Positions 17,689 through 29,543 of a DNA stretch of 33,315 nucleotides are shown here, in pieces (positions within the stretch are counted from its first letter, which is position 1; every line of letters begins with the position of its first letter). The translations under genes were made by a program, and so were the position numbers. The stretch lies in IMG/VR virus record IMGVR_UViG_3300049032_000027, positions 1 to 33,315 of that record; one strand, given 5' to 3'. Under the pieces are notes generated by a model. That model searched no databases, was not told where the DNA came from, and was given only the letters and a program-made list of their open reading frames with translations. This DNA comes from a virus.

Positions 17689-17704
17689 GGGTATAATAAA
17701 AGTA

Positions 17705-17965
17705 ATGGCTATTATTAAAACAGTACAGTACACCGGCGCAAGTTCAGTATCGACATTGTCGGGAGATATTAGGCTTGAACAATCCAAGGGAAGGCTTGTG
17801 ATTTACGATCCCTCAAACCAACAGGAGCTTACTGTAGTGGATAGGACAGGGTTCTTGTTCTCTGATGGCACAGATAGGCGTATTAAACTTGGTTCATATG
17901 CTACAAGAGTCGGATTCTGGATGTCGAAGCCCGGTGAGGACGTAATCGACTTATTGGCGGCGTAA
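17705..17965 (+). CDS. Hypothetical tail-module protein
   Basis: Called on position. TATAAT ends 7 nt before the ATG and there is no Shine-Dalgarno sequence. Confidence 0.4.
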   Translation: MAIIKTVQYTGASSVSTLSGDIRLEQSKGRLVIYDPSNQQELTVVDRTGFLFSDGTDRRIKLGSYATRVGFWMSKPGEDVIDLLAA

Positions 17966-18654
17966 TGAGTCTTTCTAGCTCAAAACTAATGCAAATCGAC
18001 TCCGACTATCCGTTGGACAAGATAATATGGCTTAGGTCGGGTAGCGTGTCAGTACCCTCAATGGGATTTAACGATGTTCACATTCCACATGGATTACCAT
18101 TTATGCCACTTCCTAGAGGATTATGGACAACTGACAGTACTTGGCAGACTGCTTATGAAATGAATAGTGGCCCAATAACAACAAGCCCCACAGCACCCTC
18201 CCCCTTTACTTTTGATACGGGCATTGAAGCCAACTCAACAGAAGTAATCTTTCGCAACCAAAACTGGACAGGTTCAACTGCTACGCTTTATTACCGTATT
18301 TATGCGTTTATGCCCTCCACTGTTAATCTTGACGCACCGTTCACAAATGTAGGTGTAGATAATTTCATGATTAACTCAGATTATAACTATACAAAACTCT
18401 ATTTAGCAGGAGTGACGGCAGCATCTGGTGTAGCAAGCTCAACCGCAGTCGTTCCCCATAATCTAGGATATCGGCCTCAAGTTATGGCATGGGCCGAAAG
18501 AGACGGGACAGTTTATGACGAAACGTATACTTATGTAAATTCAGGTGTTCCAGATAGTGGATGTGACGTGAACATAAACGATCTAACTTTTACGAGAGCC
18601 TCATTTATACCGACCACGGAAAGGTTCCATTATAGAATTTATTTGGATGAATAA
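17965..18654 (+). CDS. Hypothetical tail/baseplate protein
   Basis: Called on position; overlapping stop/start. Confidence 0.4.
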   Translation: MSLSSSKLMQIDSDYPLDKIIWLRSGSVSVPSMGFNDVHIPHGLPFMPLPRGLWTTDSTWQTAYEMNSGPITTSPTAPSPFTFDTGIEANSTEVIFRNQNWTGSTATLYYRIYAFMPSTVNLDAPFTNVGVDNFMINSDYNYTKLYLAGVTAASGVASSTAVVPHNLGYRPQVMAWAERDGTVYDETYTYVNSGVPDSGCDVNINDLTFTRASFIPTTERFHYRIYLDE

Positions 18655-19072
18655 TATGACAAAACCAGAACAATTCATACTAAATTCAGATTACGCAACA
18701 TTAAAGAATGATGCAAGGAATACTATTCAAATTACCATTCCTGGAAGTATGGTAATTAGTGCGTCTTCTACATATTCAAATTCAACAATAATTACACTCG
18801 GTACTATTGGGGCGGCGATTCGTTCAAGGATAAACTCCAACAAAGACCCTAGCTTAGATATGTTGGGTTCTTCCGTAAGTTATTCAAGAACTGGAACTTC
18901 AGGAGGAGGCCCGGCTTTGTATGATGTACTTGCATGTGTAACTCGTGAATCATCTACTACTGTAAGGTTAACAGTTCTAATTCGTAATCCTTACGGTGCA
19001 ACATTAACATTAGCAGCAGGGAGTGAAATTATAACGGCAGACATAAACACGTTCTTGTCTCCGTATGCTTAG
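18647..19072 (+). CDS. Hypothetical tail/baseplate protein
   Basis: Called on position. Confidence 0.4.
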   Translation: MNNMTKPEQFILNSDYATLKNDARNTIQITIPGSMVISASSTYSNSTIITLGTIGAAIRSRINSNKDPSLDMLGSSVSYSRTGTSGGGPALYDVLACVTRESSTTVRLTVLIRNPYGATLTLAAGSEIITADINTFLSPYA

Positions 19073-19611
19073 TATCGGCTTTTCGCAAGTTCTGAGTCGA
19101 AGAAGGAACCTTTTCCACCGTATGCGTCAAGATAATTTCTTGTATTGTTGAATCGTTTAGATTCAAATGGAACACCCGTAGAACAGTAGCTAGCAAAGGC
19201 GGTTAGGGCTTTCATGTTTTTTTCACGTACATCTTCAGTAAATCGTTCAGGATACATTGCTACGATAGCATTTAAACACTCTTGGTCGTACTGAGTCTGA
19301 AACATATGAGGATAGTCTTTTGCTATTTCTTCTATAGATCGGACTGACGATGGCGCTTGGGCCTGTGCGAGTTCTGGAGTATCATCAACGAATAGCTCTG
19401 AATCACTAGGAACTTCCATAGCCGCCATTTCTAGTTCAACTGGTTTAGTTTCTTCCTGTTTAGTTACTTCGGCGTTATTTTTTACATTACTGGTAGGTTC
19501 TTCCGTCATACTACTATTATAAACTGTATAAACTTCTGTAGTGTATAAAACCCCTAATAAAACAGTCACCCACACGACTTTACTCTTTAAAACAATATTT
19601 ACTAATTCCAT
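19069..19611 (-). CDS. N-terminally membrane-anchored protein of unknown function (moron-like)
   Basis: The N-terminal hydrophobic segment VVWVTVLLGVLY is followed by an acidic linker and a globular domain. It is preceded on the minus strand by the early promoter and leader (GAAAGG-aataat-ATG). Confidence 0.6.
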   Translation of the reverse strand: MELVNIVLKSKVVWVTVLLGVLYTTEVYTVYNSSMTEEPTSNVKNNAEVTKQEETKPVELEMAAMEVPSDSELFVDDTPELAQAQAPSSVRSIEEIAKDYPHMFQTQYDQECLNAIVAMYPERFTEDVREKNMKALTAFASYCSTGVPFESKRFNNTRNYLDAYGGKGSFFDSELAKSRY

Positions 19612-19644
19612 ATTATTCCTTTCATTGCTAATAATATACTATTC

Positions 19645-19673
19645 AATATAGCACATGCTTAAATATTATGCAA
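19645..19673 (-). promoter_or_regulatory. Early-type sigma-70-like promoter (minus strand): TTGCAT-17-TATATT with AAGCATGTGC spacer
   Basis: The reverse complement reads TTGCAT...AAGCATGTGCTATATT, identical in core to the promoters at 24961, 27729 and 28779. Confidence 0.6.
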
Positions 19674-19682
19674 TAGATAATA

Positions 19683-20054
19683 ATGTATAATAAAACTAAG
19701 ATGGAAAGACTAGTGAATGCAAACATACCAGGTATATTTAGAAAGCTTCGTGGCCTTGAAGAGGACGATATACAGGTAAATAAATATGCAGGCGGGTATC
19801 CTTACAAATTAAATGGAGTTTTACGTGAGAGTGATTCTCGTACTCCTATCTATTCGTACGCAAAAAACTATAAGAAATATAATGAAATGTTTTGTATTTT
19901 TTTGTGGTCGCCAGAGAGTGACATACAGAAAATAGAGAAGTTCATGGACGATTCAGTTAAATTAGTTAAAAAAGACCAAATTAAAAAAATAGTGTCAGAC
20001 CCAGTATTTAGTAACTGGCAGTATCTCGACACTGAATACAAAGGAGACAAATAA
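19683..20054 (+). CDS. Hypothetical protein
   Basis: ORF only; no recognisable motif. Confidence 0.45.
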   Translation: MYNKTKMERLVNANIPGIFRKLRGLEEDDIQVNKYAGGYPYKLNGVLRESDSRTPIYSYAKNYKKYNEMFCIFLWSPESDIQKIEKFMDDSVKLVKKDQIKKIVSDPVFSNWQYLDTEYKGDK

Positions 20055-20638
20055 TGGCACTTCCCTATCCTGGTAAAGACGCCGTTCCATTCACCCCGCT
20101 TACTGCACAGTTTCTAGATGAAATGATTGCTAATGATGAGGCGTTAGCAGCGGGAACAGGGTTTAATAATGGTGCTATTCCAACTTCAGCTTACCAAGAT
20201 GGATCAGTGACACCCGTAAAATACTCAAATTTATATAAATTTAGTGCCACGTTTACTGCAGCACAGAGTCCCGGTGGGGCAACAAAAATAAACCTAGGGG
20301 TAGAATTATATGATACTAACAATAACTTCGATACTTCCCTGAGTAGGTATACTGCGCCCATCACTGGTCATTATCACTTTGATGCTCAACTTACTCAATT
20401 CATTGGCAACGGTCAGACACAATGTGCAATTTATAAAAACGGAACGGTATTAAAGTATGCCCCACTATTCTTTAATGCTACTGGGGGGGCACAGAATATG
20501 GGAAGTAATGTATCGGCAGATGTAAAATTAAATGCCGGTGATTATATTGAACTTTACACTGGTGCAGTTACGACGGGTGCAGCAGTAGGAGGCCAAGATA
20601 GGACCTTCCTTAATGGTCATTTAATTAGTATCACATAA
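20054..20638 (+). CDS. C1q/BclA-C-terminal-like fibre or receptor-binding protein (putative)
   Basis: ITGHYHFDAQL ... CAIYKNGTVL ... AGDYIELY follows the C1q-type jelly-roll pattern; position near the tail end. Confidence 0.45.
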   Translation: MALPYPGKDAVPFTPLTAQFLDEMIANDEALAAGTGFNNGAIPTSAYQDGSVTPVKYSNLYKFSATFTAAQSPGGATKINLGVELYDTNNNFDTSLSRYTAPITGHYHFDAQLTQFIGNGQTQCAIYKNGTVLKYAPLFFNATGGAQNMGSNVSADVKLNAGDYIELYTGAVTTGAAVGGQDRTFLNGHLISIT

Positions 20639-20710
20639 GGAGTAGTACCATGAATACAAACCAAGATGAAGAATTCCAAGGAGAAGTATTTCCAGTAGAG
20701 GAGAGCACTA

Positions 20711-21367
20711 ATGAGTAGTCTACAACAATTCAGAGAATGGTCTATATCACAGGGGCAAGTTAGCAACCCAACAACTCAAGTTGTAAACCAATATCCTGGA
20801 CAGTGCGTTTCACTTGTACAGCAGTATCTTGATAGAGTATTCGGAATTCCTTACGCTCCTAGGGGGAACGCCAAAGACTTTGTACCACCTACTTTTAGTA
20901 GAGTCTCGGGAGGTCTTCTTCCAGGTGACATAATCCGCTATGGGAAAAACTATGGTGGGGGATACGGTCACATCGGAATTATTGATGACGATGGAAAGTT
21001 CCTTGATCAAAACGGTACTGTACCACTACGTGTAGGACGTAGGGACCAACCGTTTAATGGCATTGAGAGTGTTTGGCGACCAACAAAAGCCCTCCAAGTA
21101 AAAACTCCGAGCGATCAACGTCGGACAGCGAATGGAATAGCTACTGTAATCACCATGGCATTGAATGTGAGAAGTGAACCCTCAACTTCAGCATCCGTCG
21201 TAGCTACTTACAAACGGGGTGATAGATTTACGTATGATAGTTACATAATTGCTAACGGGTTCGTATGGCTTAGTTACATTGGTAATAGTGGAAACCGACG
21301 TTATGTGGCCGAGGGTCCATATGACGGCAACCGTAACAACATATATGTAACAGGAGGAATAAGTTAA
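20711..21367 (+). CDS. Endolysin: CHAP amidase/peptidase domain plus SH3b cell-wall-binding domain
   Basis: YPGQCVSLVQQYL (catalytic Cys), GYGHIGII (His), and C-terminal NVRSEPSTSASVVATYKRGDRFTYDSYIIANGFVWLSY (SH3b). Confidence 0.85.
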   Translation: MSSLQQFREWSISQGQVSNPTTQVVNQYPGQCVSLVQQYLDRVFGIPYAPRGNAKDFVPPTFSRVSGGLLPGDIIRYGKNYGGGYGHIGIIDDDGKFLDQNGTVPLRVGRRDQPFNGIESVWRPTKALQVKTPSDQRRTANGIATVITMALNVRSEPSTSASVVATYKRGDRFTYDSYIIANGFVWLSYIGNSGNRRYVAEGPYDGNRNNIYVTGGIS

Positions 21368-21612
21368 TGAACAATACAGTAACATCCTACGTTAGAACAT
21401 ACGCCCCAATTGTAGCAGGAACGATTATTGCATGGCTTACTTCAAACGGTATCGAGACTGATGAAAACTTTAGCACTAACTTAACACTTGCTTTAAGCTT
21501 AGCGTTTTCAATGCTTTACTACCTAGTTGCCCGACTGGTTGGTAAGAAGTACCCTGTAGTTGAGAGATTTATGTTAGGCTCTTCTAAGACGCCAGTATAT
21601 AGGGAGAAATAG
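21367..21612 (+). CDS. Holin-like protein with two transmembrane segments
   Basis: Two hydrophobic segments and a charged C-terminus; ATGA-type overlap with the endolysin gene. Confidence 0.5.
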   Translation: MNNTVTSYVRTYAPIVAGTIIAWLTSNGIETDENFSTNLTLALSLAFSMLYYLVARLVGKKYPVVERFMLGSSKTPVYREK

Positions 21613-21613
21613 T

Positions 21614-21964
21614 ATGAAATTTGAAGGCGGCACATCAAGTGTAATTAGTACAGGGACTAAAACAATCCTATTAAATGACGATACGATTAATATTGATGAG
21701 GTATTCTTTTCTACAGAAGAACCTGACGACAACGCATCAGTAGGTTGGAGCAATATTACGTCCAATTATACTCGGAATCCCCTATATAACGACTCATCAA
21801 CTTCATATGCCCTGAGGCATTACAAGAATGTAGGGGGAGTAAAAACTCTCATCTTGTCTATCAATATACCTAGCACAGGATTTGATGAAGCAGGTGAGCT
21901 AACAATGACTATTAATACTGTCGTTGGAACTCCGAAGCTTTATTTCTTAGTAAAAGGAACGTAA
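21614..21964 (+). CDS. Hypothetical protein
   Basis: ORF only. Confidence 0.4.
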   Translation: MKFEGGTSSVISTGTKTILLNDDTINIDEVFFSTEEPDDNASVGWSNITSNYTRNPLYNDSSTSYALRHYKNVGGVKTLILSINIPSTGFDEAGELTMTINTVVGTPKLYFLVKGT

Positions 21965-21968
21965 AGAT

Positions 21969-22307
21969 ATGGCAAAAACACAAACAGAGCTAGAATCACC
22001 CGCAAAAGTCTACCAATTAATAGCAATCGAGACAAAAGTTGATAGCCTCTTTGAGGTAGTCAAAAAAATTGAGGCTAATACGACTGGTGTGGCTACAGTA
22101 GGATACGTAGCAGGTGCAATAGAAAAAGTTGAGGATGAGCTTAGAAAGTATATAGATAAAGAAATATCTGACACAGTAGTGAACATCCATGCTAAGTATG
22201 AACCAATGCAAAAAGAGCACGAATGGGTTAAATATACAGTCATCGGCGGAATAGCCTTACAGTTAATTGTTGCAGGTATCCTATACCTTGTAACTAAAGG
22301 GGTATAA
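21969..22307 (+). CDS. XhlA-like coiled-coil protein with C-terminal TM anchor (putative lysis accessory)
   Basis: Coiled-coil N-terminus, C-terminal VIGGIALQLIVAGILYLV, and position in the lysis region. Confidence 0.4.
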   Translation: MAKTQTELESPAKVYQLIAIETKVDSLFEVVKKIEANTTGVATVGYVAGAIEKVEDELRKYIDKEISDTVVNIHAKYEPMQKEHEWVKYTVIGGIALQLIVAGILYLVTKGV

Positions 22308-22308
22308 G

Positions 22309-22755
22309 ATGAAATTTGATAAAGGTAGAACGGTAACGTGGTTATTACTACTCTTTATTTTAATTGTCCTATTCAATATTTATACTTTGATAAAAGAACG
22401 AGATCAAATATACAAAAGTCTTGAGAGTACTATATTTAACAAAGTAATAAGCAATATTCCAGAGCCAAAAAATGGGATAGATGGCGATACGCCAGTTAAG
22501 GGTATAGATTACTTTGATGGCAGAGACGGACGTGATGGTGAGAACGGAAAAGACGGTCAAGATGGCCGTGACGGGGTAGACGGAGCACAGGGCCCTCAAG
22601 GAATTCAGGGAGAAAAGGGAGAACCAGGAGCAAATGGACTCACTCCCCAGCTTAGATGCAACAAAGAGAAGAACAGATGGGAAGTTAGGTATAGTGATGA
22701 CCAAAACTGGGAACTACTGAACGGTGAAAAAGTAAGGTGTACAAACGGACTATGA
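22309..22755 (+). CDS. Membrane-anchored collagen-like repeat protein
   Basis: N-terminal TM segment WLLLLFILIVLFNIYTLI, then Gly-X-Y repeats GRDGRDGENGKDGQDGRDGVDGAQGPQGIQGEKGEPGANG. Confidence 0.7.
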   Translation: MKFDKGRTVTWLLLLFILIVLFNIYTLIKERDQIYKSLESTIFNKVISNIPEPKNGIDGDTPVKGIDYFDGRDGRDGENGKDGQDGRDGVDGAQGPQGIQGEKGEPGANGLTPQLRCNKEKNRWEVRYSDDQNWELLNGEKVRCTNGL

Positions 22756-22756
22756 T

Positions 22757-22900
22757 ATGGAATCGCCGAACGAAATACTTACACCATGGTATGACGGTGA
22801 AACTATAGAATGGATAACACCACCAGAATATTATTCTAGGTTATTAGGAAATATAGCTTGTACTGAACTCGACATTATTATCGACTCTCCAACAGAATAG
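22757..22900 (+). CDS. Small hypothetical protein (47 aa, below the ORF-track cutoff)
   Basis: ATG 2 nt after the upstream stop: MESPNEILTPWYDGETIEW... Confidence 0.35.
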   Translation: MESPNEILTPWYDGETIEWITPPEYYSRLLGNIACTELDIIIDSPTE

Positions 22901-22936
22901 TAATAGGTGTATAATTAAAGTGTAACAAGGAGGAAT

Positions 22937-23083
22937 ATGAGTTTACTTTTAGCTTTAGTTTGTGGAGTACTAGCATACTTCGTCGCATCACTAGTTTTTA
23001 ACCAGGTAATTTCAGTTCTAATCGGAGTAGTTGTAGCATTGTCTGTTGCATTCGATTGGAGAACTGGAAGTTGGCGGAGATAA
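22937..23083 (+). CDS. Small two-TM membrane protein (48 aa, below the ORF-track cutoff)
   Basis: AAGGAGG is 5 nt before the ATG. Sequence MSLLLALVCGVLAYFVASLVFNQVISVLIGVVVALSVAFDWRTGSWRR. TGTATAAT lies at 22907-22914 upstream. Confidence 0.5.
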   Translation: MSLLLALVCGVLAYFVASLVFNQVISVLIGVVVALSVAFDWRTGSWRR

Positions 23084-23131
23084 ATAGTATAATAAAAGCA
23101 CAGTAGTTCTTGTTTCGCCAAAACATTAAAT

Positions 23132-23155
23132 AAGCCCCAGAAATGGGGTTTGTTT
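23132..23155. terminator. Hairpin terminator, probably bidirectional
   Basis: AAGCCCCA-gaaa-TGGGGTTT followed by GTTT on the + strand. On the - strand the same stem is followed by CTTATTTAATGTTTT. Confidence 0.7.
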
Positions 23156-23748
23156 AATTAAATGGGTATATTTACTAGTTTATAACTAAAGGTCCTGTAT
23201 GATGCTTTAAATCGTTAATTACGGGTACTTATTCTATCTCTAATGAATAGTTCTAAGTAAATCATTATCCTTTTCATGAAACTACGCTCAATCCTGGCTA
23301 GTTCAATGATATCTAGTATGTCTTTTTCATCCCGTTTCAAGCGGTGTGAAGTTCAACTGGTCATTACTCCATTATAACAGAAACAATTAGACCATCTCCC
23401 CTACTACTTTAGGAGCTAAACAATTCCAAACCCTTAACATCTACTCTCTATCGCTATCAATGCTCACGTACTTCTACGGCTTGCCAGTTGGTTTCTGTCC
23501 CAATAACGATATTAGTCAGTATTAGTACGGAGTAAGAGAGACGAATCGAATATTTAATCAAGGCTCGTCACACCTGTCCGTACTAAGTTTCGGCACGTTC
23601 ACTTCATTTTTCGTCCAGACCATTTTCGCCACTTTGCGAAAATGGTCATTGGGAGGGGCTACTAGTGCTCGGTGCAGTTTTGATTGAAGACAGGTAAGGG
23701 GTAGTGAGTCCAGGATCGTGCAGGAACACGATTCAGCTACTCACTCAC

Positions 23749-23810
23749 GGAGTCGGACTCGAACCGACGACCTCCCATATTGGGTGCTCTACCGACTGAG
23801 CTATCCCCTC
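23749..23810 (-). ncRNA. tRNA-like element: canonical D arm and T arm, truncated anticodon arm, no local acceptor stem
   Basis: The minus strand reads GAGGGGA-TA-GCTC-AGTCGGTA-GAGC-A-CCCAATATGGG-AGGTC-GTCGG-TTCGAGT-CCGAC-TCCGTGA. The anticodon arm is 11 nt instead of 17, and the 3' side pairs with only 3 of the 7 acceptor positions. Confidence 0.6.
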
Positions 23811-24010
23811 TAACCCCATATCCATCCTCAATCCTTGAAGACATGGTGCTAGTAGCAAAGACATGACCTACGTTTAGCCCGACGTATCAAGGCAGGCATA
23901 TGGGAGTCGTCTTACTACCCACTAACTTTCTAACCAATAGGTGGACGTGCTACTTATTACACCAGCTCTTCACGTAGGAGCATTACTACCAGCACAACTA
24001 TCTTCAAGTG

Positions 24011-24040
24011 TTGATTATAGACACTAGAGAGAGGGAGATA
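24011..24040 (-). promoter_or_regulatory. Promoter/operator-like element (minus): TATCTCCCTCTCTCTAGTGTCTATAATCAA
   Basis: Matches 25/30 ungapped positions of the + strand element at 24462-24491. Contains a perfect TATAAT and points into the ncRNA region. Confidence 0.5.
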
Positions 24041-24053
24041 ATTATTTATTTAA

Positions 24054-24440
24054 CTATGCTTTTACTCTATGTTCGGCAAACTCAAGGAGATTAAAATAAA
24101 TCTCAAATTGCCATTGACCTAATTCACCTGTATCGTCGTCAAAATGGTCAAACCACGCCTTAACAACGAACATTCCAGTAGATGATGATAAGTCTCTGTA
24201 GTTTCCTTTTGGAACGTTACGTATTATTGACTTGCCGACACTATTTACCAGTTCAGTAATGGTGTCTTGTAATTTGTACACACTAGGTATTCTATCTCCG
24301 TAATCGTATCCGAGTGACTGAAATAAGGGAGCTGCTTTGATAGCGGCTGCTTCAGTGTATTCGTTTACATAAACGCTTTCCCACCCAAGTGCGTCACAAA
24401 CTATTTCTAAATCGTTCGTAATCTTATCATGAACATCCAT
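24054..24440 (-). CDS. Acidic hypothetical protein (128 aa)
   Basis: GGAG is 5 nt upstream of the ATG on the minus strand. It is one of three minus-strand CDSs called here (with 11874-12086 and 19069-19611) and is flanked by the inverted 30-nt elements. No recognisable motif. Confidence 0.6.
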   Translation of the reverse strand: MDVHDKITNDLEIVCDALGWESVYVNEYTEAAAIKAAPLFQSLGYDYGDRIPSVYKLQDTITELVNSVGKSIIRNVPKGNYRDLSSSTGMFVVKAWFDHFDDDTGELGQWQFEIYFNLLEFAEHRVKA

Positions 24441-24461
24441 ATGATTCTCCTATCATATTTG

Positions 24462-24491
24462 TATCCCTCTCTCACTAGTATCTATAATCGA
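24462..24491 (+). promoter_or_regulatory. Promoter/operator-like element (plus): TATCCCTCTCTCACTAGTATCTATAATCGA
   Basis: Inverted copy of 24011-24040; TATAAT at 24483-24488 pointing rightwards. Confidence 0.5.
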
Positions 24492-24494
24492 TAG

Positions 24495-24606
24495 ACTGCT
24501 AAACTATCTTATGTTAAGGTATTTGCTACTTAAAACAATAACTGCTATACTATGAGTATAAGACTCATGGCTGAGCAACTGCACCCTATACGGGTGCTTT
24601 TTGTTT
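24495..24606 (+). ncRNA. Possible short terminated transcript (about 50-110 nt)
   Basis: Lies between TATAAT 24483-24488 (or TGCTATACT 24541-24549) and the terminator at 24580-24606. No ORF. Contains hairpins GATAG/CTATC and ATGAGT-ataag-ACTCAT. Confidence 0.3.
24580..24606 (+). terminator. Rho-independent terminator
   Basis: GCACCC-tatac-GGGTGC followed by TTTTTGTTTT. Confidence 0.75.
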
Positions 24607-24960
24607 TAACTAACCCCTATTCGACTCATGGCTTAGAAGAATCAAATAGTTATACCAATAATACCACAGAAGAAACAAAAGTACACCCATTAACATACAA
24701 AAGTGGAGGGTAGAATACTTTGTATAGGGTATACGATTGACTAACATAAGTCAGAATAGGGGGTATAAGGTTCATGACGAAATCACGTCACTATATTTAG
24801 TATAGCATATTTTGAACAAAACAAAAAGGACCCGTAGTGTGAGGCCCTTTAAGGATTGATGTCAAGCAATGAAAGAAAACTTTATAGGGACGGCGAAGCC
24901 GTAAAGTAATCCATCAATCATTTTTATAATAGCATATAATCATAATCTTTGTAAATTACC

Positions 24961-24989
24961 TTGATATAACTACAAGCATGTGCTATATT
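24961..24989 (+). promoter_or_regulatory. Early-type promoter TTGATA-17-TATATT (TG-extended), spacer AAGCATGTGC
   Basis: Read directly. Followed by the conserved leader CAAGTAATGAAAGG and the ATG at 25020. Confidence 0.7.
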
Positions 24990-25019
24990 AAATACACAAG
25001 CAAGTAATGAAAGGAAAAT

Positions 25020-25571
25020 ATGGAAGAATTAGATAAAAAAGAACTTGATGTAATCGATAAAGCTATTCAGAAACATGGCTCACTCACAGAATCAACGTAT
25101 AAACAGATACTTGGATTTAATCCACCACGATCAATCGTCAAACAACACAAGTTTGGAAAGTTTGATTATCTCCCAATCACTGCAATTGAACGAATGCTTG
25201 ACGGACTATTTGAGTCTTGGAGTGTAGAAGTTCTGCGAGAAGGTGTAGCGGTTAATGGATTCTACGTCGTCGTTAAATTGAAGGCTAAAATACCTTATTC
25301 GGATAAAGTATTAGTATCAGATGGAATCGGATTCGCTGAATTTCAAACTATTAAAGACGCCTCACCTACTGATTTTAGTAAATTATCTCAAGCTGCGGGC
25401 GTTATGGCGGTTCCAAAAGCACGTACAGAGGCTATTAAGAACGCCGCTAAGTCATTTGGTAATTTATTTGGTAGAAACCTAACTAGAGATGATGACCAAT
25501 GGGAGAGCGAGGAAGAAGTTGTAAGTAAAGCACGAACAAAGATCGCTAATGCACTCAAAGGGGATAAATAA
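25020..25571 (+). CDS. Rad52/Sak-like single-strand annealing protein
   Basis: DYLPITAIERMLDGLF..W ... AVPKARTEAIKNAAKSFGNLFGRNL resembles the Rad52-family core (TDA.KRA...FG..FG..L). Confidence 0.6.
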   Translation: MEELDKKELDVIDKAIQKHGSLTESTYKQILGFNPPRSIVKQHKFGKFDYLPITAIERMLDGLFESWSVEVLREGVAVNGFYVVVKLKAKIPYSDKVLVSDGIGFAEFQTIKDASPTDFSKLSQAAGVMAVPKARTEAIKNAAKSFGNLFGRNLTRDDDQWESEEEVVSKARTKIANALKGDK

Positions 25572-25858
25572 TGGCCTACTCTAATATAGAGGAAACTCTA
25601 TTTACTTATTATGATGAAAGAGAAGAAGATCTCATAGAAAGTTGGCTAGAGGAGCATGGTTATACTTTTTGGCGACCAACAGTTTGCGGTGACTGTTGTG
25701 GTATGTATGAAGAATTTTATTCAGTTAACGGTATCTGCGGGAAATGGGATAGTGAGACTGACAAACAAGAGTTTATAGAATTTGCTAAAAAGAACAATAT
25801 ACCTTTTAACGAAGAGGAAATTGATAATTATCATATAAATCCGAGGGTAGAATCATGA
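25571..25858 (+). CDS. Hypothetical acidic protein with a Cys cluster (CGDCCG)
   Basis: ORF only; ATAATG overlap-type junction. Confidence 0.45.
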   Translation: MAYSNIEETLFTYYDEREEDLIESWLEEHGYTFWRPTVCGDCCGMYEEFYSVNGICGKWDSETDKQEFIEFAKKNNIPFNEEEIDNYHINPRVES

Positions 25859-26601
25859 AACCAATCAACTTGTCCCCTAGCTTTCTCATTAAGGTGTACG
25901 AAAAGGGATACGATTATGCTGTTGGTGAAAAACTGGGACTATTCCCACATGAAGATACCAGTGCAATGTCAGACGGTCGTTTAATCCACGCCCTAATATC
26001 TGAACGATTGGGCGGCGAAAAGGCAAAGATCGCTATAATGCCGTTTGATAATTTCCGTACCAATGCCGCTAAGGAATGGCGTGATAGTCAACCAGACGAC
26101 ACCTCAATTGTGACTGAAGAAAAGATTGAAACGTTAAACAAGATTATCGATAGACTTGTAGACCACGAGAAACTAGAAAAGTTCCTAAGCAATCCGTGCC
26201 TTACAGAATTGGTAGTTGAGAAACAAGTAAACGGTCATAACGTAAAAGGTATTCTTGACTTAGTGTCCACTGATGACGAGACGACTACAGTGATTGACTG
26301 GAAGTTCGTATCTACACAGGTCTTCGATTCATTTTCCAAGAAGGCTCTGTATCAACACTACGACTTGCAGGCGGCAATCTATGATTACCTGAAGGACGCT
26401 ACAAATATTTACTTCGTAGCAATTGAAAATCAAGCCCCATACCGAATTAAAGTATTCCACTGTGACTCTAGTTTCCTTGAAAGCGGGGCTGAAAAATTTA
26501 ACAAAGCTTTTAAGATAATTGACGAAGCTAAAGGTCGAGAGCCGAACTTCAATATCAATGTTGTTGAAGAGCTTATAGCATGGGATCAATATAATGGATA
26601 A
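25855..26601 (+). CDS. PD-(D/E)XK (RecB/Cas4-like) recombination exonuclease
   Basis: GRLIHALISE ... ILDLVS ... VIDWKF ... QAAIY are in the order of the PD-(D/E)XK motifs. Adjacent to the annealing protein. Confidence 0.6.
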   Translation: MKPINLSPSFLIKVYEKGYDYAVGEKLGLFPHEDTSAMSDGRLIHALISERLGGEKAKIAIMPFDNFRTNAAKEWRDSQPDDTSIVTEEKIETLNKIIDRLVDHEKLEKFLSNPCLTELVVEKQVNGHNVKGILDLVSTDDETTTVIDWKFVSTQVFDSFSKKALYQHYDLQAAIYDYLKDATNIYFVAIENQAPYRIKVFHCDSSFLESGAEKFNKAFKIIDEAKGREPNFNINVVEELIAWDQYNG

Positions 26602-26788
26602 TAAAGAAACTAAGTTTTTCGATATTAGTAGTAAAGAACATGTTGAGAGTATAGATTACTATGATTACAAAGATAAATCCTCATTCGAGGAGCTATCTGA
26701 TAATATGAATAACCTACTAAAAGAATTATCAAGAGTGTTAAAACTAGAAGAAATAGTTCACTGGATAAATAGGAGATTAAATAAATGA
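26594..26788 (+). CDS. Hypothetical protein
   Basis: ORF only. Confidence 0.4.
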   Translation: MDNKETKFFDISSKEHVESIDYYDYKDKSSFEELSDNMNNLLKELSRVLKLEEIVHWINRRLNK

Positions 26789-27087
26789 GTGATGAACGAC
26801 GAGAAGTAAGAGCAAAAGTCCGTGCATATGAAAAAGACGGTGAAACTAAAAATGTCTACGCTACAGTAGGCACTGCATGGGTGTCTGAACATGGAAGTAA
26901 AATATCTATCCAACTTGAAACTGTGCCAGTCACTCCTGAGTGGGACGGTAGGCTATTTATAAATAAACCATACGAAAATAAAGATAGTACACCAATCAAA
27001 CAACACGAAGTAATAGAAAAAACTCGTGATAACTTACCAGATTATGATTTTGATAAACCAATTTCTTTACAGGACATCCCATTCTGA
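26785..27087 (+). CDS. Short SSB-like protein with C-terminal ...DIPF tip (putative)
   Basis: The C-terminus ISLQDIPF matches the conserved bacterial SSB tail (DDDIPF). It is only 100 aa and sits in the recombination module. Confidence 0.45.
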   Translation: MSDERREVRAKVRAYEKDGETKNVYATVGTAWVSEHGSKISIQLETVPVTPEWDGRLFINKPYENKDSTPIKQHEVIEKTRDNLPDYDFDKPISLQDIPF

Positions 27088-27088
27088 T

Positions 27089-27373
27089 ATGAAAAATAGA
27101 AAATGGGCTACTACTGAAGAAGAAAATGGTTGGTTAGTACGTGACGAAAAAGGAAGACCAAGACAATTTATCGGAAGTATAAAAGGTAGATATGGTATAT
27201 GGATGAGAGAATATAGAACGCGTATTCCTGTTAAGGTGTACGAAGAAATAACTACTGACTATGCAATACATGCTGAAGTATGTGCCTGGTGTGAAAATAC
27301 AGATATTGAGTGGGTCGATAATAATGGAAACAATACACCATACTTAATTTCATCGGTAAACAATGGCAAATAA
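27089..27373 (+). CDS. Hypothetical protein
   Basis: I prefer ATG 27089 (TGATATG junction with the upstream stop) to the track start at 27026, which overlaps the previous gene by 62 nt. Confidence 0.45.
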   Translation: MKNRKWATTEEENGWLVRDEKGRPRQFIGSIKGRYGIWMREYRTRIPVKVYEEITTDYAIHAEVCAWCENTDIEWVDNNGNNTPYLISSVNNGK

Positions 27374-27743
27374 AACACTCATTAAAAAACTAGATATCGT
27401 ATTCTCAAAGTATATACGGTTAAGAGACTCTAACAATGGAGTATTTTTGTGTTGCAGCTGTACTCAATATAAACCCTACGAACAAGCAGACGCTGGACAC
27501 TTTATCAATCGCCGCTGGATGGCTACAAGATGGCGAGAAGACAACGTCCATGCACAATGCAGATCATGTAACAGGTTTGATGAAGGAAATGCCGTAGGGT
27601 ATACGATGTTTATGATAAATAAATATGGTAAAGAGCATGTCGAGTATCTGCAGGCTATTAAAAACGGCGGCTATAAGTACAAAGACTACGAAATACAAGT
27701 GTTAATTGAAGAATATAAACAAAAACTATTGCAATTTAAGTAA
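27363..27743 (+). CDS. NinG/Rap-like recombination endonuclease
   Basis: LDIVFSKYIRLRD...CCSC...ADAGHFINRRWMATRWREDNVHAQCRSCNRFDEGN matches the lambda NinG-family pattern. Confidence 0.75.
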   Translation: MANKTLIKKLDIVFSKYIRLRDSNNGVFLCCSCTQYKPYEQADAGHFINRRWMATRWREDNVHAQCRSCNRFDEGNAVGYTMFMINKYGKEHVEYLQAIKNGGYKYKDYEIQVLIEEYKQKLLQFK

Positions 27744-27757
27744 GCATATGCTATATT
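27729..27757 (+). promoter_or_regulatory. Early-type promoter TTGCAA-17-TATATT, spacer AAGCATATGC
   Basis: Read directly. Followed by the conserved leader CCAAGCAATGAAAGG. Confidence 0.7.
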
Positions 27758-27764
27758 AAGAGTA

Positions 27765-28110
27765 CATCCAAGCAATGAAAGGATGAAAGCGACGGGATAA
27801 AGATAGACCCAAGCCAAAAACTCTGACAAGGCAGTCGCTTACAAAATATAAACTCGGTAGCCATTCACCCAGTCGAAAGCCAGTAGAATACGGCTCAGAC
27901 ACTCACGAGGAACTTAGGCTGGATGATTGGCTACTGAGATTAACAATTGAGTGTAGTAGCACAAGTAATAATAGTCCGACGGAGAGTATTACTTCGGGGA
28001 GTTTCTACGGGAACCACCACTCTTAGCAAGTAGTGTGCACACAAAAGCGGAGCAAACAAATACGTATTATTACTGGTACCATACACTCAATTACAAAAAA
28101 AAGGAGACAT
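27765..28110 (+). ncRNA. Structured RNA of about 340 nt (stand-alone ncRNA or long cis-regulatory leader)
   Basis: Nested helices 27853-27862/27929-27938 (one G-U, valid on + only), 27945-27955/28082-28092 and 27964-27973/28065-28074. No ORF of 60 aa or more. Ends about 10 nt before the GGAG of the next gene. Confidence 0.6.
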
Positions 28111-28114
28111 AACA

Positions 28115-28309
28115 ATGTCAAAAACATCAACAAACAAAACACCAAAAACAGTAGAGATTAAACTACTAATTCCTTACGCAATTATTGCAATATTAATCGT
28201 TGCAATTGCAGGACTCATCACAGGATGGTTCGTACACAACAATTACACTCAATCAATGCAGCAGGAATACAATAACGGTGTTGCATCGGTAAAAACATCA
28301 CAGAAGTAA
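28115..28309 (+). CDS. Small membrane-anchor protein, probably the N-terminal part of a split transglycosylase
   Basis: GGAG RBS and TM segment LLIPYAIIAILIVAIAGLITGWFV. The reading frame of the downstream SLT domain is open from 28276. Confidence 0.5.
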   Translation: MSKTSTNKTPKTVEIKLLIPYAIIAILIVAIAGLITGWFVHNNYTQSMQQEYNNGVASVKTSQK

Positions 28310-28431
28310 AGACTGTAGCTTCTGAGAATATAGAAACAGTCAAAGAAGAAATAGCACCTGAAAAAACTCTTACAGACTGTAGAATATCCTATAAGTACAA
28401 CTGGGATAAAAAGATAGCCTATGCAGTATGT

Positions 28432-28659
28432 ATGGCAGAATCTGAAGGCAACCCAAACGCCGCTAACATGAACGATGTTCATAACGGATGTATAGGTAGC
28501 TACGGATTATTCCAGATTGCATGTGTACATGGTGGTATATTTTACGATCCAGAAGAGAACGTAAAAAAGGCTTACGATGTTTACCTATCCCAAGGATGGA
28601 ACGCATGGGGGGCATATTCAAGCGGAGCGTATTTGAGGTATATGAATGTTGAGGTATAA
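28432..28659 (+). CDS. Lytic transglycosylase (SLT/lysozyme-like) domain, apparently lacking its own start
   Basis: AESEGNPNAAN...GSYGLFQI...W is the SLT catalytic region. The domain sequence YNWDKKIAYAVC continues upstream of the ATG in the same frame back to 28276, with no start codon. Confidence 0.6.
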   Translation: MAESEGNPNAANMNDVHNGCIGSYGLFQIACVHGGIFYDPEENVKKAYDVYLSQGWNAWGAYSSGAYLRYMNVEV

Positions 28660-28735
28660 ACTACTATTAAAGAAATACTCTGGATACAACTGGTTAAAGT
28701 TGGAACTCCAAAGGCTTTCAATACAAGATTAAATT

Positions 28736-28768
28736 ATTCGCCGACTATGCGAGGGTCGGCGAATTTTA
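28736..28768 (+). terminator. Rho-independent terminator
   Basis: ATTCGCCGAC-tatgcgagg-GTCGGCGAAT (10-bp perfect stem) followed by TTTTAAT. Confidence 0.75.
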
Positions 28769-28778
28769 ATATAAAAGC

Positions 28779-28807
28779 TTGAACTATTTGAAAGCATGTG
28801 CTATATT
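28779..28807 (+). promoter_or_regulatory. Early-type promoter TTGAAC-17-TATATT, spacer AAGCATGTGC
   Basis: Read directly. Followed by the leader TTAAGCAATGAAAGG and the ATG at 28839. Confidence 0.7.
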
Positions 28808-28838
28808 AGTAATATCATTAAGCAATGAAAGGGTAAAA

Positions 28839-29030
28839 ATGAATCTACAAACGTACGCAGACAAAGTAATTGTCGAACATGAACACACTCAGGTTAATGT
28901 ATATTTAGAAAACATTGATTTATGTGACGTACTTGCTCAATTTAGCACAGAAGAGGTATTAAAATCACTCGTAGCAAATGATAATTATTCAGATATTGTT
29001 GATTTTGTTAATAGGAGTGATGATGAATAA
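28839..29030 (+). CDS. Hypothetical acidic protein
   Basis: I prefer the start at 28839 because the track start 28779 lies inside the promoter. GAAAGG is 6 nt upstream. Confidence 0.5.
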   Translation: MNLQTYADKVIVEHEHTQVNVYLENIDLCDVLAQFSTEEVLKSLVANDNYSDIVDFVNRSDDE

Positions 29031-29154
29031 ATATGATTACATAATTTCTATATTAGGATTATTAATGATTTTACTGTATACATATTTAATGTTTTTTGCC
29101 CCATGTGAAACAATCAAAATACTAAATTTGTCTGTTCCTGGTAGATGTTTATGA
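29023..29154 (+). CDS. Small membrane protein (43 aa, below the ORF-track cutoff)
   Basis: AGGAG is 5 nt upstream. Sequence MNKYDYIISILGLLMILLYTYLMFFAP...; overlapping stops and starts on both sides. Confidence 0.4.
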   Translation: MNKYDYIISILGLLMILLYTYLMFFAPCETIKILNLSVPGRCL

Positions 29155-29543
29155 CCGATTACGACAAAGAACTAGATGAGATAATCAACGCTATCATCAA
29201 TGCTTGCGAGGCGTCGAGTATTGGCGAAATTACACCTGCACTATTTGAAGAGATGATGGACAGGGCAAAAGAGCTGCACAATGAACTCCTATACCAAGCC
29301 AAACTCGACGGTGCTATTGAGGAGCTGGAAGAGTGCTGGAACCAGGGAGTAAAAAACAACTCATTAGAACTTGAGGACGCATATCTATCAGAGCGGATTG
29401 ATATGTTGAAGAGCATGAGAGAGAACCCACACACTCATGTAATTCGTGGGCATGCGGATGGAAGTGGGCGTCGAAGCTGTGCAGTATGCCGATTTCCAGA
29501 AGACCGTCTCGCCACCCTCAAAGGGCAGAAGGAGAAGCTATGA
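29151..29543 (+). CDS. Coiled-coil protein, paralog A1 (DYDKELD family)
   Basis: Paralogous to 31831-32154 (MxDYDKELD, AKL[DN]GAIEELE, RLAxLK...KL-stop). ATG 29151 matches the paralog's N-terminus. Confidence 0.55.
   Translation: MTDYDKELDEIINAIINACEASSIGEITPALFEEMMDRAKELHNELLYQAKLDGAIEELEECWNQGVKNNSLELEDAYLSERIDMLKSMRENPHTHVIRGHADGSGRRSCAVCRFPEDRLATLKGQKEKL

What the first reader, a model, noticed from the sequence alone, without database searches (positions are those of the whole stretch)
23650..23810. tRNA mimic that keeps the elbow (D and T arms) but lacks an anticodon arm, with a possible distal acceptor strand followed by CCA
On the minus strand, 23810-23749 reads GAGGGGA TA GCTC AGTCGGTA GAGC A CCCAATATGGG AGGTC GTCGG TTCGAGT CCGAC.

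The D arm, variable loop and T arm are textbook. The anticodon stem-loop is only 11 nt (CCCA-ATA-TGGG or CCC-AATAT-GGG). The 7 nt after the T arm (TCCGTGA) pair with only 3 positions of the 5' acceptor strand.

About 90 nt further on, CCCCTC (23658-23653) is fully complementary to GAGGGG and is followed immediately by CCA (23652-23650). The intervening stretch folds into the 23745-23703 stem-loop. This pattern suggests selection for the tRNA elbow rather than for decoding. Bacterial and phage Y-RNA-like YrlA tRNA mimics are a known precedent. A permuted or insert-containing tRNA, or a decayed tRNA gene, are alternatives.
Basis: partly seen in the sequence, partly recalled or inferred. Interest (0 to 1): 0.7.

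Follow-up and report, generated by a model that had tools for sequence, protein, structure and literature searches.

The report
Acceptor-less tRNA-like fragment in a phage
A small phage genome carries a piece of tRNA that keeps the two arms forming the tRNA "elbow" but has no anticodon loop and no acceptor stem; it is real, but it occurs only in this phage, so it is more likely a recombination relic inside a heavily folded untranslated RNA than a working tRNA mimic.

Summary
On the minus strand, 23810-23749 holds a textbook D arm, variable loop and T arm, an 11-nt mini "anticodon" hairpin, and only 3 of 7 proximal acceptor pairs. Rfam tRNA scores 38.6 bits and ARAGORN calls nothing.

- **Not a YrlA:** the arm order is wrong, the complete 33.2-kb genome has no Ro60/TROVE gene, and the Ro60-module motif is absent.
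- **Distal CCCCTC+CCA acceptor not supported:** it has no discriminator base, occurs in about 0.5% of shuffles (chosen post hoc), and has about zero pairing probability in the full transcript.
- **Stronger partners exist:** GAGGGGAUA is more complementary to the stretch just after the upstream gene's stop codon. That stretch is one arm of a stem bracketing the 128-aa gene, and this bracket covaries in all homologous loci.
- **Origin of the "5' acceptor strand":** it looks like a duplicated bracket arm joined to a tRNA fragment at GGAUA.

The element lies in a GC-rich, strand-specifically folded 3' untranslated stretch. It is absent from 11 related phages and from 9 loci carrying the upstream gene, and no homologue was found. 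Best reading: a lineage-specific tRNA-derived relic (about 0.5). A functional elbow module is not excluded (about 0.25).

The parts
23749..23810 (-). tRNA-like core. Contains GAGGGGA (23810-23804), U8A9, D arm (23801-23786), 4-bp/3-nt mini anticodon hairpin (23784-23774), variable loop AGGUC (23773-23769), T arm (23768-23752) and UCC (23751-23749).
   Evidence: Rfam RF00005 at 38.6 bits. No ARAGORN call. Direct reading. The cloverleaf-core structure is -16.6 kcal/mol against a local MFE of -19.4.
23703..23745 (-). Hairpin H2 directly after the T arm: 7 bp, an internal loop, then 7 bp.
   Evidence: Present in every fold.
23813..23833 (-). Arm X''. It can pair either with the post-stop arm X' (extending hairpin H1) or with 23702-23682. 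Together with the linker UAGAGGGGAUA it resembles the 5'-UTR arm X.
   Evidence: X':X''+linker is -28.7 kcal/mol, z = -3.6. The X versus X''+linker alignment is reached by 8 of 500 shuffles.
23682..23702 (-). Arm X'''. A possible 3' partner of X'' that would enclose the tRNA-like core and H2. Weakly supported.
   Evidence: MFE of the 901-nt transcript; -25.9 kcal/mol, z = -2.2.
23650..23658 (-). Probably coincidental.
   Evidence: Direct reading. Chance 10% for CCCCTC and 0.5% with CCA. Pairing probability about 0 in the long context.
23834..24008 (-). Hairpin H1, a long imperfect hairpin between the gene's 3' arm and the tRNA-like core.
   Evidence: With X'/X'' it makes 88 pairs at -98.1 kcal/mol, z = -6.45, on the minus strand, against -66.4, z = -2.4, on the plus strand. 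It has 13 G.U pairs and no A.C among its single-base mismatches.
24013..24040 (-). Arm X', the 3' bracket arm just after the stop codon of the 128-aa gene.
   Evidence: Inverted repeat I1. X:X' is -37.5 kcal/mol, z = -8.9. The bracket is conserved by covariation in all homologous loci.
24054..24440 (-). 128-aa gene of unknown function with a good AGGAG ribosome-binding site, upstream of the element on the same strand.
   Evidence: 15 homologues at 47-79% identity. No Pfam or PHROG hit. AlphaFold2 pLDDT 86, with no fold match in PDB or BFVD.
24462..24489 (-). Arm X, the 5'-UTR bracket arm of the 128-aa gene. It ends in AGAGGGAUA.
23618..23647 (-). Hairpin H3, a perfect 12-bp palindromic stem with a 6-nt loop and no U tract on either strand.
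   Evidence: Not listed as terminator-like.

Best explanation
**What it is.** 23810-23749 (minus strand) is a genuine tRNA-derived core: D arm, an 11-nt mini-hairpin where the anticodon arm should be, variable loop and T arm. It has lost both acceptor strands. It is not a decoding tRNA gene, not a YrlA-type Y RNA, and not a CCA-ended mimic.

**Where it sits.** It lies about 245 nt downstream of the stop codon of a mobile 128-aa accessory gene. The orientation is the same and no predicted terminator lies between them. It is inside a GC-rich untranslated stretch of about 450 nt that folds very stably on this strand only.

**Most likely history (inferred).** A fragment of a tRNA gene, or of a tRNA-like gene that already had a short anticodon arm, was joined by illegitimate recombination to a duplicated copy of the stem arm that brackets the neighbouring gene. 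The junction is at the shared GGAUA. This replaced the 5' acceptor strand, and the 3' acceptor strand was lost at about position 68.

**Most likely behaviour (inferred).** It is transcribed as part of the long 3' untranslated region. The D and T loops can still lock into an elbow. Without an acceptor helix it cannot be cut by RNase P or RNase Z, receive CCA or be aminoacylated. It is therefore most probably a lineage-specific passenger, and at most one more compact folded block in an already highly structured 3' region.
For: **Shown: the core is real but incomplete**
- The core is real. It has only 3 of 7 acceptor pairs and a 4-bp/3-nt arm.

**Shown: the GAGGGG strand has better partners than the distal CCCCUC**
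- Pairing to the post-stop arm X' is -28.7 kcal/mol, z = -3.6.
- In the full transcript the distal CCCCUC gets about 0 probability.
- X' belongs to a 5'UTR/3'-flank bracket found in every homologue of the gene (L106, L108, L109, L110, L111, L112, L113, L115). The arm sequences differ and show compensatory changes, z from -3 to -8.
- X and X''+linker both begin GAUU and end AGAGGG(G)AUA, with alignment p about 0.016.

**Shown: the element is unique to this phage**
- It is absent from 9 loci carrying the 128-aa gene (L106-L110 checked with ARAGORN and Rfam; all by BLAST).
- It is absent from 11 relatives sharing the adjacent Rad52-like gene at 63-73% identity.
- The viral, metagenome and plasmid searches returned no homologue.
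- The only other copy is 100% identical over 7 kb.

**Shown: no partner genes and no traceable donor**
- The genome is complete (127-nt terminal repeat).
- It encodes no integrase, TROVE protein or tRNA-handling enzyme among the 30 ORFs scanned, which include every ORF of 300 aa or more.
- No cellular donor tRNA was identifiable. Genomes with the same D and T arms hold ordinary tRNA-Thr, Asn and Lys with different acceptor and anticodon stems.
Against: - The core shows no point-mutational decay. All three stems are perfect Watson-Crick and every tertiary residue is canonical. A neutral relic would look like this only if it were very young.
- The 4-bp/3-nt arm has the same format as a recurring class of phage and metagenome tRNA-like units whose acceptor stems are clearly maintained. 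The short arm may therefore be a design feature rather than damage.
- The element sits in a GC island (50% against 35-38%) with strongly strand-specific RNA structure on its own strand.
- A compact 33-kb phage keeps about 0.9-1.3 kb without ORFs here, identical in two independent samples.
- The recombination-junction argument rests on a modest similarity (p about 0.016).
Confidence: 0.5

Rival explanations
1. Functional elbow module. The core is kept because its D-loop/T-loop elbow is read by a host or phage factor, such as the RNase P specificity domain, TruB, TrmA or Dus enzymes, T-box stem I, or a tRNA-targeting defence nuclease. Alternatively it acts as a rigid block that protects or punctuates the long 3' untranslated RNA. 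The flanking long-range helices (X''/X''' or X'/X'') would replace the acceptor stem.
For: - Tertiary residues are intact and all stems are perfect.
- The cloverleaf core is within 2.8 kcal/mol of the local MFE.
- It has the same 11-nt (4 bp + 3 nt) arm format as other units in a class where 59 of 82 distinct units keep at least 6 of 7 acceptor pairs with unrelated sequences.
- It lies in a GC island with strand-specific structure on the same strand.
- No terminator was predicted between the gene and the element.
- Bacterial Y RNAs show that tRNA-like modules without a free CCA end can be functional (PMC4201824).
Against: - It is a singleton, absent from 11 relatives and from all loci carrying the upstream gene.
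- No covariation is available.
- The candidate closing helix X''/X''' is weak (z = -2.2), and three alternative partners compete for the same strand.
- No partner protein is encoded nearby. The 128-aa protein has no recognisable fold and occurs widely without the element.
Confidence: 0.25
2. One reading: an insert-containing tRNA mimic. GAGGGG (23810-23805) pairs with the distal CCCCUC (23658-23653) across a 90-nt insert holding hairpin H2, giving an acceptor-like helix that ends in an encoded CCA.
For: - The 6-mer complement followed directly by CCA is present.
- It occurs in only 0.5% of shuffles.
- The pairing appears in the MFE and centroid structures when 23815-23640 is folded alone.
Against: - The helix has 6 bp with an A.G mismatch at position 7, and CCA abuts the helix with no discriminator base.
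- The isolated fold is not unusual (z = -1.85).
- In the 901-nt context the pairing probability is about 0.
- The GAGGGGAUA strand is probably part of a duplicated bracket arm rather than a tRNA acceptor strand.
- The feature was selected post hoc, and no homologue exists to test covariation.
Confidence: 0.05
3. A domain of a new large structured phage RNA. The whole ORF-free stretch from about 24045 to 23150 or 23600 would be one ornate non-coding RNA with an embedded tRNA-like unit, analogous to GOLLD RNAs that carry tRNAs in their linker region.
For: - The 501-nt fold has z = -6.7, and 23660-23130 has z = -2.8.
- The G.U bias is strand-specific.
- About 0.9 kb without a credible ORF follows the gene.
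- GOLLD and ROOL are phage-borne, lie near tRNAs, and GOLLD sometimes holds tRNAs in its linker (PMC12286853).
Against: - No Rfam family other than tRNA matches, even at E up to 10.
- No homologue exists anywhere, whereas real ornate RNAs form families.
- Much of the stability comes from one long hairpin, and part of that reuses the gene's bracket arm.
Confidence: 0.1
4. A remnant of a phage attachment site or a captured host tRNA gene. This would be a leftover from an ancestor that integrated into a tRNA gene, or from an imprecise excision.
For: - It lies between the lysis module and the early genes, where temperate siphoviruses usually carry attP and the integrase.
- L111, a locus carrying a homologue of the 128-aa gene, has an integrase nearby.
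Against: - The complete genome has no integrase.
- By established knowledge, attP sites carry the 3' part of the tRNA, whereas this fragment is the 5' and middle part without the 3' end.
- No matching cellular tRNA was found among 185,579 species representatives.
Confidence: 0.04

Closest known systems
tRNA pseudogenes and tRNA gene fragments in phage genomes
   Same: It scores above the Rfam tRNA threshold, has canonical D and T arms, and cannot decode. It is a singleton acquisition in one lineage.
   Different: Both acceptor strands are missing while the interior is flawless. The anticodon arm is a neat 4-bp/3-nt hairpin rather than a mutated 17-nt arm. It is embedded in a strongly structured, same-strand untranslated RNA.
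YrlA and Yrn1 bacterial and phage Y RNAs (Chen et al. 2014, PMC4201824; Wang et al. 2018, bioRxiv 10.1101/312249)
   Same: They are tRNA-like modules with D-arm and T-arm mimicry and no free CCA end, embedded in a larger RNA. The D, stem-loop, T order is shared with D. radiodurans Yrn1.
   Different: - YrlA has the permuted order T arm, closed acceptor stem-loop, D arm.
- Y RNAs lie next to a Ro60/TROVE gene and carry a Ro60-binding helix.
- None of these features is present here.
GOLLD RNA with tRNAs in its linker (PMC12286853)
   Same: A phage-borne, large, highly structured non-coding region containing a tRNA-type unit.
   Different: There is no match to the GOLLD or ROOL models. The embedded unit here is not an intact tRNA. 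No family of homologues exists.
Short-anticodon-arm tRNA-like units in viral and metagenome contigs
   Same: The same D-arm and T-arm consensus, with an anticodon arm cut to 10-13 nt. Several have exactly 4 bp + 3 nt.
   Different: 59 of 82 of those units keep a 6-7 bp acceptor stem, and some have G3:U70 plus A73. The window's unit has 3 of 7 pairs. No sequence relationship goes beyond the generic tRNA core (at most 88% over 52 nt).
mascRNA/menRNA and gammaherpesvirus tRNA-miRNA-encoded RNAs (eukaryotic; from my own knowledge, plus the title and abstract of PMC11693755 listed)
   Same: A non-decoding tRNA-like fold placed in or at the end of a longer transcript and followed by hairpins.
   Different: Those have a complete acceptor stem that RNase P and RNase Z cut and that receives CCA. 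This element has no acceptor helix. The similarity is an analogy only.

Membership tests
tRNA (Rfam RF00005, canonical cloverleaf) | Score at or above the curated gathering threshold | tested here: met
   38.6 bits against 29
tRNA (Rfam RF00005, canonical cloverleaf) | 7-bp acceptor stem formed by the 5' end and the strand directly after the T arm | tested here: not met
   Only GGA/UCC, 3 of 7 pairs. The Rfam alignment covers model positions 5-66 only.
tRNA (Rfam RF00005, canonical cloverleaf) | 5-bp anticodon stem with a 7-nt loop | tested here: not met
   CCCA-AUA-UGGG, 11 nt. ARAGORN makes no call.
tRNA (Rfam RF00005, canonical cloverleaf) | D and T arms with the conserved elbow residues | tested here: met
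   U8, A14, G15:C48, G18, G19, A21, G53:C61, U54, U55, C56 and A58 by direct reading
YrlA (Y RNA-like A) | Encoded next to a Ro60/Rsr (TROVE-domain) gene | tested here: not met
   The genome is complete. No TROVE hit in any ORF of 300 aa or more, nor in 20 smaller ORFs.
YrlA (Y RNA-like A) | Permuted tRNA-like module: T arm, closed acceptor stem-loop, D arm | tested here: not met
   The order here is D arm, mini-hairpin, T arm. Only one D-loop motif and one T-loop motif occur in 23100-24060.
YrlA (Y RNA-like A) | Ro60-binding stem formed by the 5' and 3' ends, with the GNCGAAN0-1G motif | tested here: not met
   The motif is absent on both strands of 23100-24060, although 29% of shuffles contain one.
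YrlA (Y RNA-like A) | Binding to Ro60; modification by TruB or DusA | not testable with these tools
   Needs immunoprecipitation and modification mapping.
tmRNA (one-piece or permuted) | tRNA-like domain with an acceptor stem plus a tag reading frame | tested here: not met
   ARAGORN finds no tmRNA. No tmRNA-clan match in Rfam.
GOLLD / ROOL large phage RNAs | Match to the family covariance model | tested here: not met
   No match at the gathering score over the window, nor at E up to 10 over 23000-24500.
attP carrying a tRNA gene fragment | Adjacent integrase, and a fragment identical to the 3' part of a host tRNA | tested here: not met
   No integrase in the complete genome. The fragment is the 5' and middle part. 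No matching cellular tRNA was found.
RNase P / RNase Z substrate (tRNA-like processing signal, t-element or mascRNA type) | Coaxial acceptor/T-arm helix of about 12 bp with a single-stranded 3' tail | tested here: inconclusive
   There is no proximal acceptor. The distal 6-bp option is disfavoured in long-context folds. Cleavage itself cannot be tested here.

The most novel reading that the evidence does not exclude
The core is a deliberately anticodon-less and acceptor-less tRNA elbow, displayed on long-range helices within a phage 3' untranslated or non-coding RNA. It would serve as a decoy or handle for a factor that recognises tRNAs by their elbow, for example a tRNA-cleaving defence nuclease, the RNase P specificity domain, T-box leaders or T-loop-modifying enzymes. 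It would be one extreme of a wider, undescribed class of phage-encoded tRNA-like RNAs with short anticodon arms. Most of that class keep an acceptor stem, and some carry Ala-type identity.
Probability: 0.15. Interest if true: 0.7.

Novelty: new variant of a known kind. Interest (0 to 1): 0.4.

Why it matters
- **If it is a relic:** it is a neat example of how phage mosaicism can splice a tRNA fragment onto a duplicated RNA stem arm. It is also a caution that a high Rfam tRNA score does not mean a tRNA.
- **If it is functional:** it would show that a phage can use the tRNA elbow alone, without acceptor or anticodon, as an RNA module. The only bacterial precedents for that are Ro60-linked Y RNAs.
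- **Two by-products may matter more than the element itself:**
  - The 128-aa accessory gene family is always enclosed by a covarying stem between its 5' UTR and 3' flank.
  - Phage and metagenome contigs hold a recurring class of tRNA-like units with intact acceptor, D and T arms but a 10-13-nt anticodon arm, which standard tRNA finders mostly miss.

Tried and rejected
- **Searching for homologues of the element**
  - A pattern scan of IMG/VR and of JGI metagenomes for cores with a short anticodon arm gave 104 and 45 contigs. None is related beyond the generic tRNA core.
  - BLAST of 22755-24053 against all 312 fetched loci (2.5 Mb) gave nothing outside the core.
  - INPHARED searches gave no relative of the region: the distant search returned only ordinary tRNA hits, and the near search of 15000-33315 found nothing. 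PLSDB gave no match.
- **Synteny route**
  - 9 loci with homologues of the 128-aa gene and 11 relatives found through the Rad52-like gene all lack the element.
- **Donor tRNA**
  - The genome scan for the same D and T arms gave 112 ordinary tRNA-Thr, Asn and Lys with unrelated acceptor and anticodon stems.
- **Myrna and ScoobyDoobyDoo "tRNA-OTHER" hits**
  - These are an ordinary suppressor tRNA inside a tRNA array.
- **The 128-aa protein as a clue**
  - No Pfam or PHROG hit. The AlphaFold2 model is confident, but no PDB or BFVD fold match reaches E < 0.2.
- **Family E (L016 and 7 others) as a comparable acceptor-less unit**
  - All copies are identical, so it is uninformative.
- **Strand bias of the bracket stems**
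  - Inconsistent: 4 loci favour the sense strand and 3 the antisense strand. RNA-level and DNA-level function of the brackets therefore cannot be separated.
- **Literature**
  - No description of genome-encoded phage tRNA mimics with short anticodon arms in the searchable library.
- **Considered and rejected from the sequence**
  - Permuted or split tRNA, intron-containing tRNA and class II long-variable-arm tRNA. The anticodon position is a closed 11-nt hairpin, with only 16 nt between the D and T arms.
Full report

Read on the minus strand, 23810-23749 is GAGGGGA-UA-GCUC-AGUCGGUA-GAGC-A-CCCAAUAUGGG-AGGUC-GUCGG-UUCGAGU-CCGAC-UCC.
- Rfam's tRNA model matches 23806-23749 at 38.6 bits (gathering score 29; E = 7e-5 over the window and 3e-6 locally). 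It aligns a 3-nt loop in place of the anticodon loop and only positions 5-7/64-66 of the acceptor.
- ARAGORN finds no tRNA or tmRNA in the whole window.
- By direct reading, every residue that builds the tRNA elbow is canonical: U8, A14, G15:C48, G18, G19, A21, G22/G46, G53:C61, U54, U55, C56, A58.
- The D stem (4 of 4), mini-hairpin (4 of 4) and T stem (5 of 5) are all Watson-Crick.
- The cloverleaf-type core is within 2.8 kcal/mol of the local minimum free energy.

**2. What is the genome?**

The window has a 127-nt terminal direct repeat, so it is a complete, circularly assembled phage genome of about 33.2 kb.

Gene content:
- small terminase, portal, a protease-capsid fusion and a tape measure;
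- a CHAP/SH3_5-type endolysin and a holin;
- then, after the region of interest, Rad52-like and PD-(D/E)XK recombination genes, NinG and HNH endonucleases.

There is no integrase, no TROVE/Ro60 protein, no tRNA-handling enzyme and no other tRNA. A second assembly from an unrelated run (L117) is 100% identical over 7 kb. No deposited phage is close. Relatives have endolysins with a Zoocin A target-recognition domain, which suggests a Streptococcus-like host.

**3. The surroundings change the picture.**

The element lies on the same strand as a 128-aa gene (24440-24054, good AGGAG ribosome-binding site) and about 245 nt downstream of it. No terminator is predicted in between.

Composition and folding:
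- The stretch 24000-23550 is a GC island, 50% against 35-38% around it.
- Folding 24060-23560 on the minus strand gives z = -6.7.
- The dominant feature is a hairpin of about 240 nt (24041-23801): -98.1 kcal/mol, z = -6.45 on the minus strand, against -66.4, z = -2.4 on the plus strand.
- It has 88 pairs, 13 of them G.U, and no A.C among its single-base mismatches. That is a signature of selection for RNA pairing on this strand.

**4. The bracket.**

The partner of that strand, UAUCUCCCUCUCUCUAGUGUCUAUAAUC (X', 24040-24013), lies just after the stop codon. It is also the 3' arm of a 28-nt inverted repeat whose 5' arm (X, 24489-24462) sits in the gene's 5' UTR.

I fetched nine loci with homologues of the gene (47-79% identity).
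- In every one, the 5' UTR and the stretch after the stop codon form a 25-35-bp duplex (z from -3 to -8).
- The arm sequences differ between loci and carry compensatory changes, for example GUGAG/CUCAC in L111 against GCGAG/CUCGC in L115.
- The bracket is therefore a conserved property of this mobile gene cassette, and the usual partner of X' is X. X:X' is -37.5 kcal/mol, z = -8.9. X':X''+linker is -28.7, z = -3.6.

When the whole transcript 24500-23600 is folded:
- X' pairs with X (23.6 of 28 nt).
- GAGGGG pairs with neither X' nor the distal CCCCUC; both have probability about 0.
- 23833-23813 then pairs with 23702-23682, enclosing the linker, the tRNA-like core and hairpin H2. That helix is only weakly above chance (z = -2.2).

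X and the stretch leading into the core both start GAUU and end AGAGGG(G)AUA (local alignment reached by 8 of 500 shuffles). In X this is followed by the 5' UTR, and in the second copy by GCUCAGUCGG.

The simplest reading is that a copy of the bracket arm was joined to a tRNA fragment at a GGAUA microhomology. On that reading GAGGGGA was never a tRNA acceptor strand.

**5. The distal acceptor plus CCA.**
- CCCCTC occurs in 10% of dinucleotide shuffles of the 149 nt downstream, and CCCCTC followed by CCA occurs in 0.5%. This is nominally rare, but the feature was chosen after inspection.
- The helix would have 6 pairs with an A.G mismatch at position 7, and CCA would abut it with no discriminator base.
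- It forms only when 176 nt are folded alone, and that fold is unremarkable (z = -1.85).
- I give this model about 5%.

**6. Is it conserved?** No evidence of that could be found.
- The nine loci with the upstream gene lack any tRNA-like unit.
- Eleven relatives that share the adjacent Rad52-like gene at 63-73% identity have no tRNA hit (Rfam E up to 0.1 or 0.5, and ARAGORN). They show no similarity to 23100-24050, although several also have ORF-poor gaps of about 1 kb at that position.
- Pattern scans of IMG/VR and JGI metagenomes, BLAST against INPHARED and PLSDB, and BLAST against everything fetched (2.5 Mb) found no homologue.
- A scan of 185,579 species genomes for the same D and T arms returned ordinary tRNA-Thr, Asn and Lys with unrelated acceptor and anticodon stems. 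No donor can be named.
- Covariation, the test that would settle function, is therefore unavailable.

**7. Comparison with known systems.**
- **YrlA.** The module is permuted (T arm, closed acceptor stem-loop, D arm) and encoded beside Ro60 (PMC4201824). Here the order is D arm, mini-hairpin, T arm. Only one D-loop motif and one T-loop motif exist within 1 kb, the GNCGAAN0-1G motif is absent, and the genome has no TROVE gene. Membership fails on every testable criterion. Only the general idea, a tRNA-like module without a free CCA end, is shared, and the arm order resembles D. radiodurans Yrn1.
- **GOLLD.** GOLLD RNAs can carry tRNAs in a linker (PMC12286853), but no GOLLD or ROOL model matches.
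- **attP.** The fragment is the wrong part of a tRNA for an attP site, and no integrase is present.

**8. A class-level observation that cuts the other way.**

The pattern scans returned 82 distinct tRNA-like units with the same D-arm and T-arm consensus and an anticodon arm of only 7-13 nt.
- 43 have a perfect 7-bp acceptor stem and 16 more have 6 of 7 pairs, with unrelated sequences.
- Many of the short arms are tidy 5-bp/3-nt or 4-bp/3-nt hairpins, and several units have G3:U70 and A73.
- ARAGORN misses most of them, or reports "tRNA-???" with a 2-nt anticodon.

Short anticodon arms are therefore a recurrent and apparently selected design in phage-associated tRNA-like RNAs. The window's 4-bp/3-nt arm fits that format. 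So the short arm need not be damage. What is exceptional here is the missing acceptor. I found no description of this class in the searchable literature.

**9. Verdict.**

Shown:
- a real tRNA-derived core without an anticodon loop or acceptor;
- its embedding in a strand-specifically structured 3' untranslated stretch of a stem-bracketed mobile gene;
- competing and better partners for the supposed acceptor strand;
- uniqueness to one phage lineage;
- failure of the YrlA, tmRNA, GOLLD and attP membership tests.

Inferred:
- origin by recombination at GGAUA;
- co-transcription with the gene;
- inability to be processed or charged.

| Reading | Weight |
|---|---|
| Lineage-specific relic or passenger | about 0.5 |
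| Functional elbow module | about 0.25 |
| Domain of a new large RNA | about 0.1 |
| att-site remnant | about 0.04 |

Interest is moderate (0.4). The element is unusual and clean, but it is a singleton with no comparative support.

Noticed in passing
window 24489-24462 and 24040-24013; L106, L108, L109, L110, L111, L112, L113, L115 around the homologous gene: The 128-aa gene family is always enclosed by a 25-35-bp duplex between its 5' UTR (ending just before the ribosome-binding site) and the stretch right after the stop codon. Arm sequences differ between loci and carry compensatory changes (z from -3 to -8). Strand bias is inconsistent, so I cannot say whether it is an RNA stem (for example an RNase III site) or a DNA-level inverted repeat of a mobile cassette.
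   Followed up: partly
L002-L105 (viral contigs) and L156-L200 (metagenome contigs); e.g. L175 4003-4047, L007 5742-5776, L002 8843-8874: There are 82 distinct tRNA-like units with normal D and T arms but an anticodon arm of only 7-13 nt. 59 keep 6-7 acceptor pairs with unrelated sequences, so the acceptor is maintained. Several have G3:U70 plus A73 (Ala-like identity: L002, L013, L043, L063, L083, L100). ARAGORN misses most of them. No description was found in the searchable literature.
   Followed up: partly
L011, L022, L061, L071, L099, L194: High-GC phage contigs in which a short-arm unit (GCCC-AAA-GGGG) is followed directly by a small hairpin and then the D arm of the next tRNA-like unit. 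The arrangement T arm, hairpin, D arm is the YrlA topology.
   Followed up: no
L114 1250-1540 (same in L113 1349-1640): Directly downstream of the 128-aa gene homologue there are three very stable hairpins (-134.6 kcal/mol over 321 nt, z = -7.8; one has 23 contiguous pairs). They are unrelated in sequence to the window's hairpin.
   Followed up: partly
window 23618-23647: A perfect 12-bp palindrome with a 6-nt spacer (GACCATTTTCGC-AAAGTG-GCGAAAATGGTC) and no U tract on either strand. It could be a protein-binding site or an RNA hairpin.
   Followed up: no
window 22937-23083 (+) and 23135-23148: A 48-aa strongly hydrophobic ORF after the tail-fibre genes, followed by a GC-rich hairpin that reads as a terminator on both strands. 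It may be a small membrane or lysis-related peptide, and the hairpin the convergent end of the plus-strand and minus-strand transcription units.
   Followed up: no
window 24581-24607 (+) and 24850-24815 (-); inverted repeat 24589-24607 / 24818-24836: Two terminator-like hairpins with nearly the same sequence (95% complementary arms) face each other upstream of the 128-aa gene, each preceded by a promoter-like site. The minus-strand one would stop transcripts from the 24955 promoter before they reach the gene. A 138-nt stretch here (24521-24652) is the only part of the region with similarity to a relative (L315, inverted, 71%).
   Followed up: no
window 32586-32607 and 33019-33040: A second small ORF (32635-32895, 86 aa, no Pfam hit) is flanked by a 22-nt inverted repeat (86% complementary). 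It may be another bracketed cassette.
   Followed up: no
window 380-3586: The phage carries a block of sugar-modification genes: Stealth CR2, a Glyco_trans_1_2 glycosyltransferase, an FkbM-type methyltransferase and a 325-aa protein with no hit. A related phage (L318) has a similar block next to the Rad52-like gene.
   Followed up: no
window 1-127 and 33189-33315: An exact 127-nt terminal direct repeat, so the contig is a complete circularly assembled genome of about 33.19 kb.
   Followed up: yes
L318 3419-3470 (-): A sub-threshold match to the Rfam 6A RNA motif (33.3 bits against a gathering score of 41.2, E = 0.01) inside an HTH_36 gene region of a related phage.
   Followed up: no
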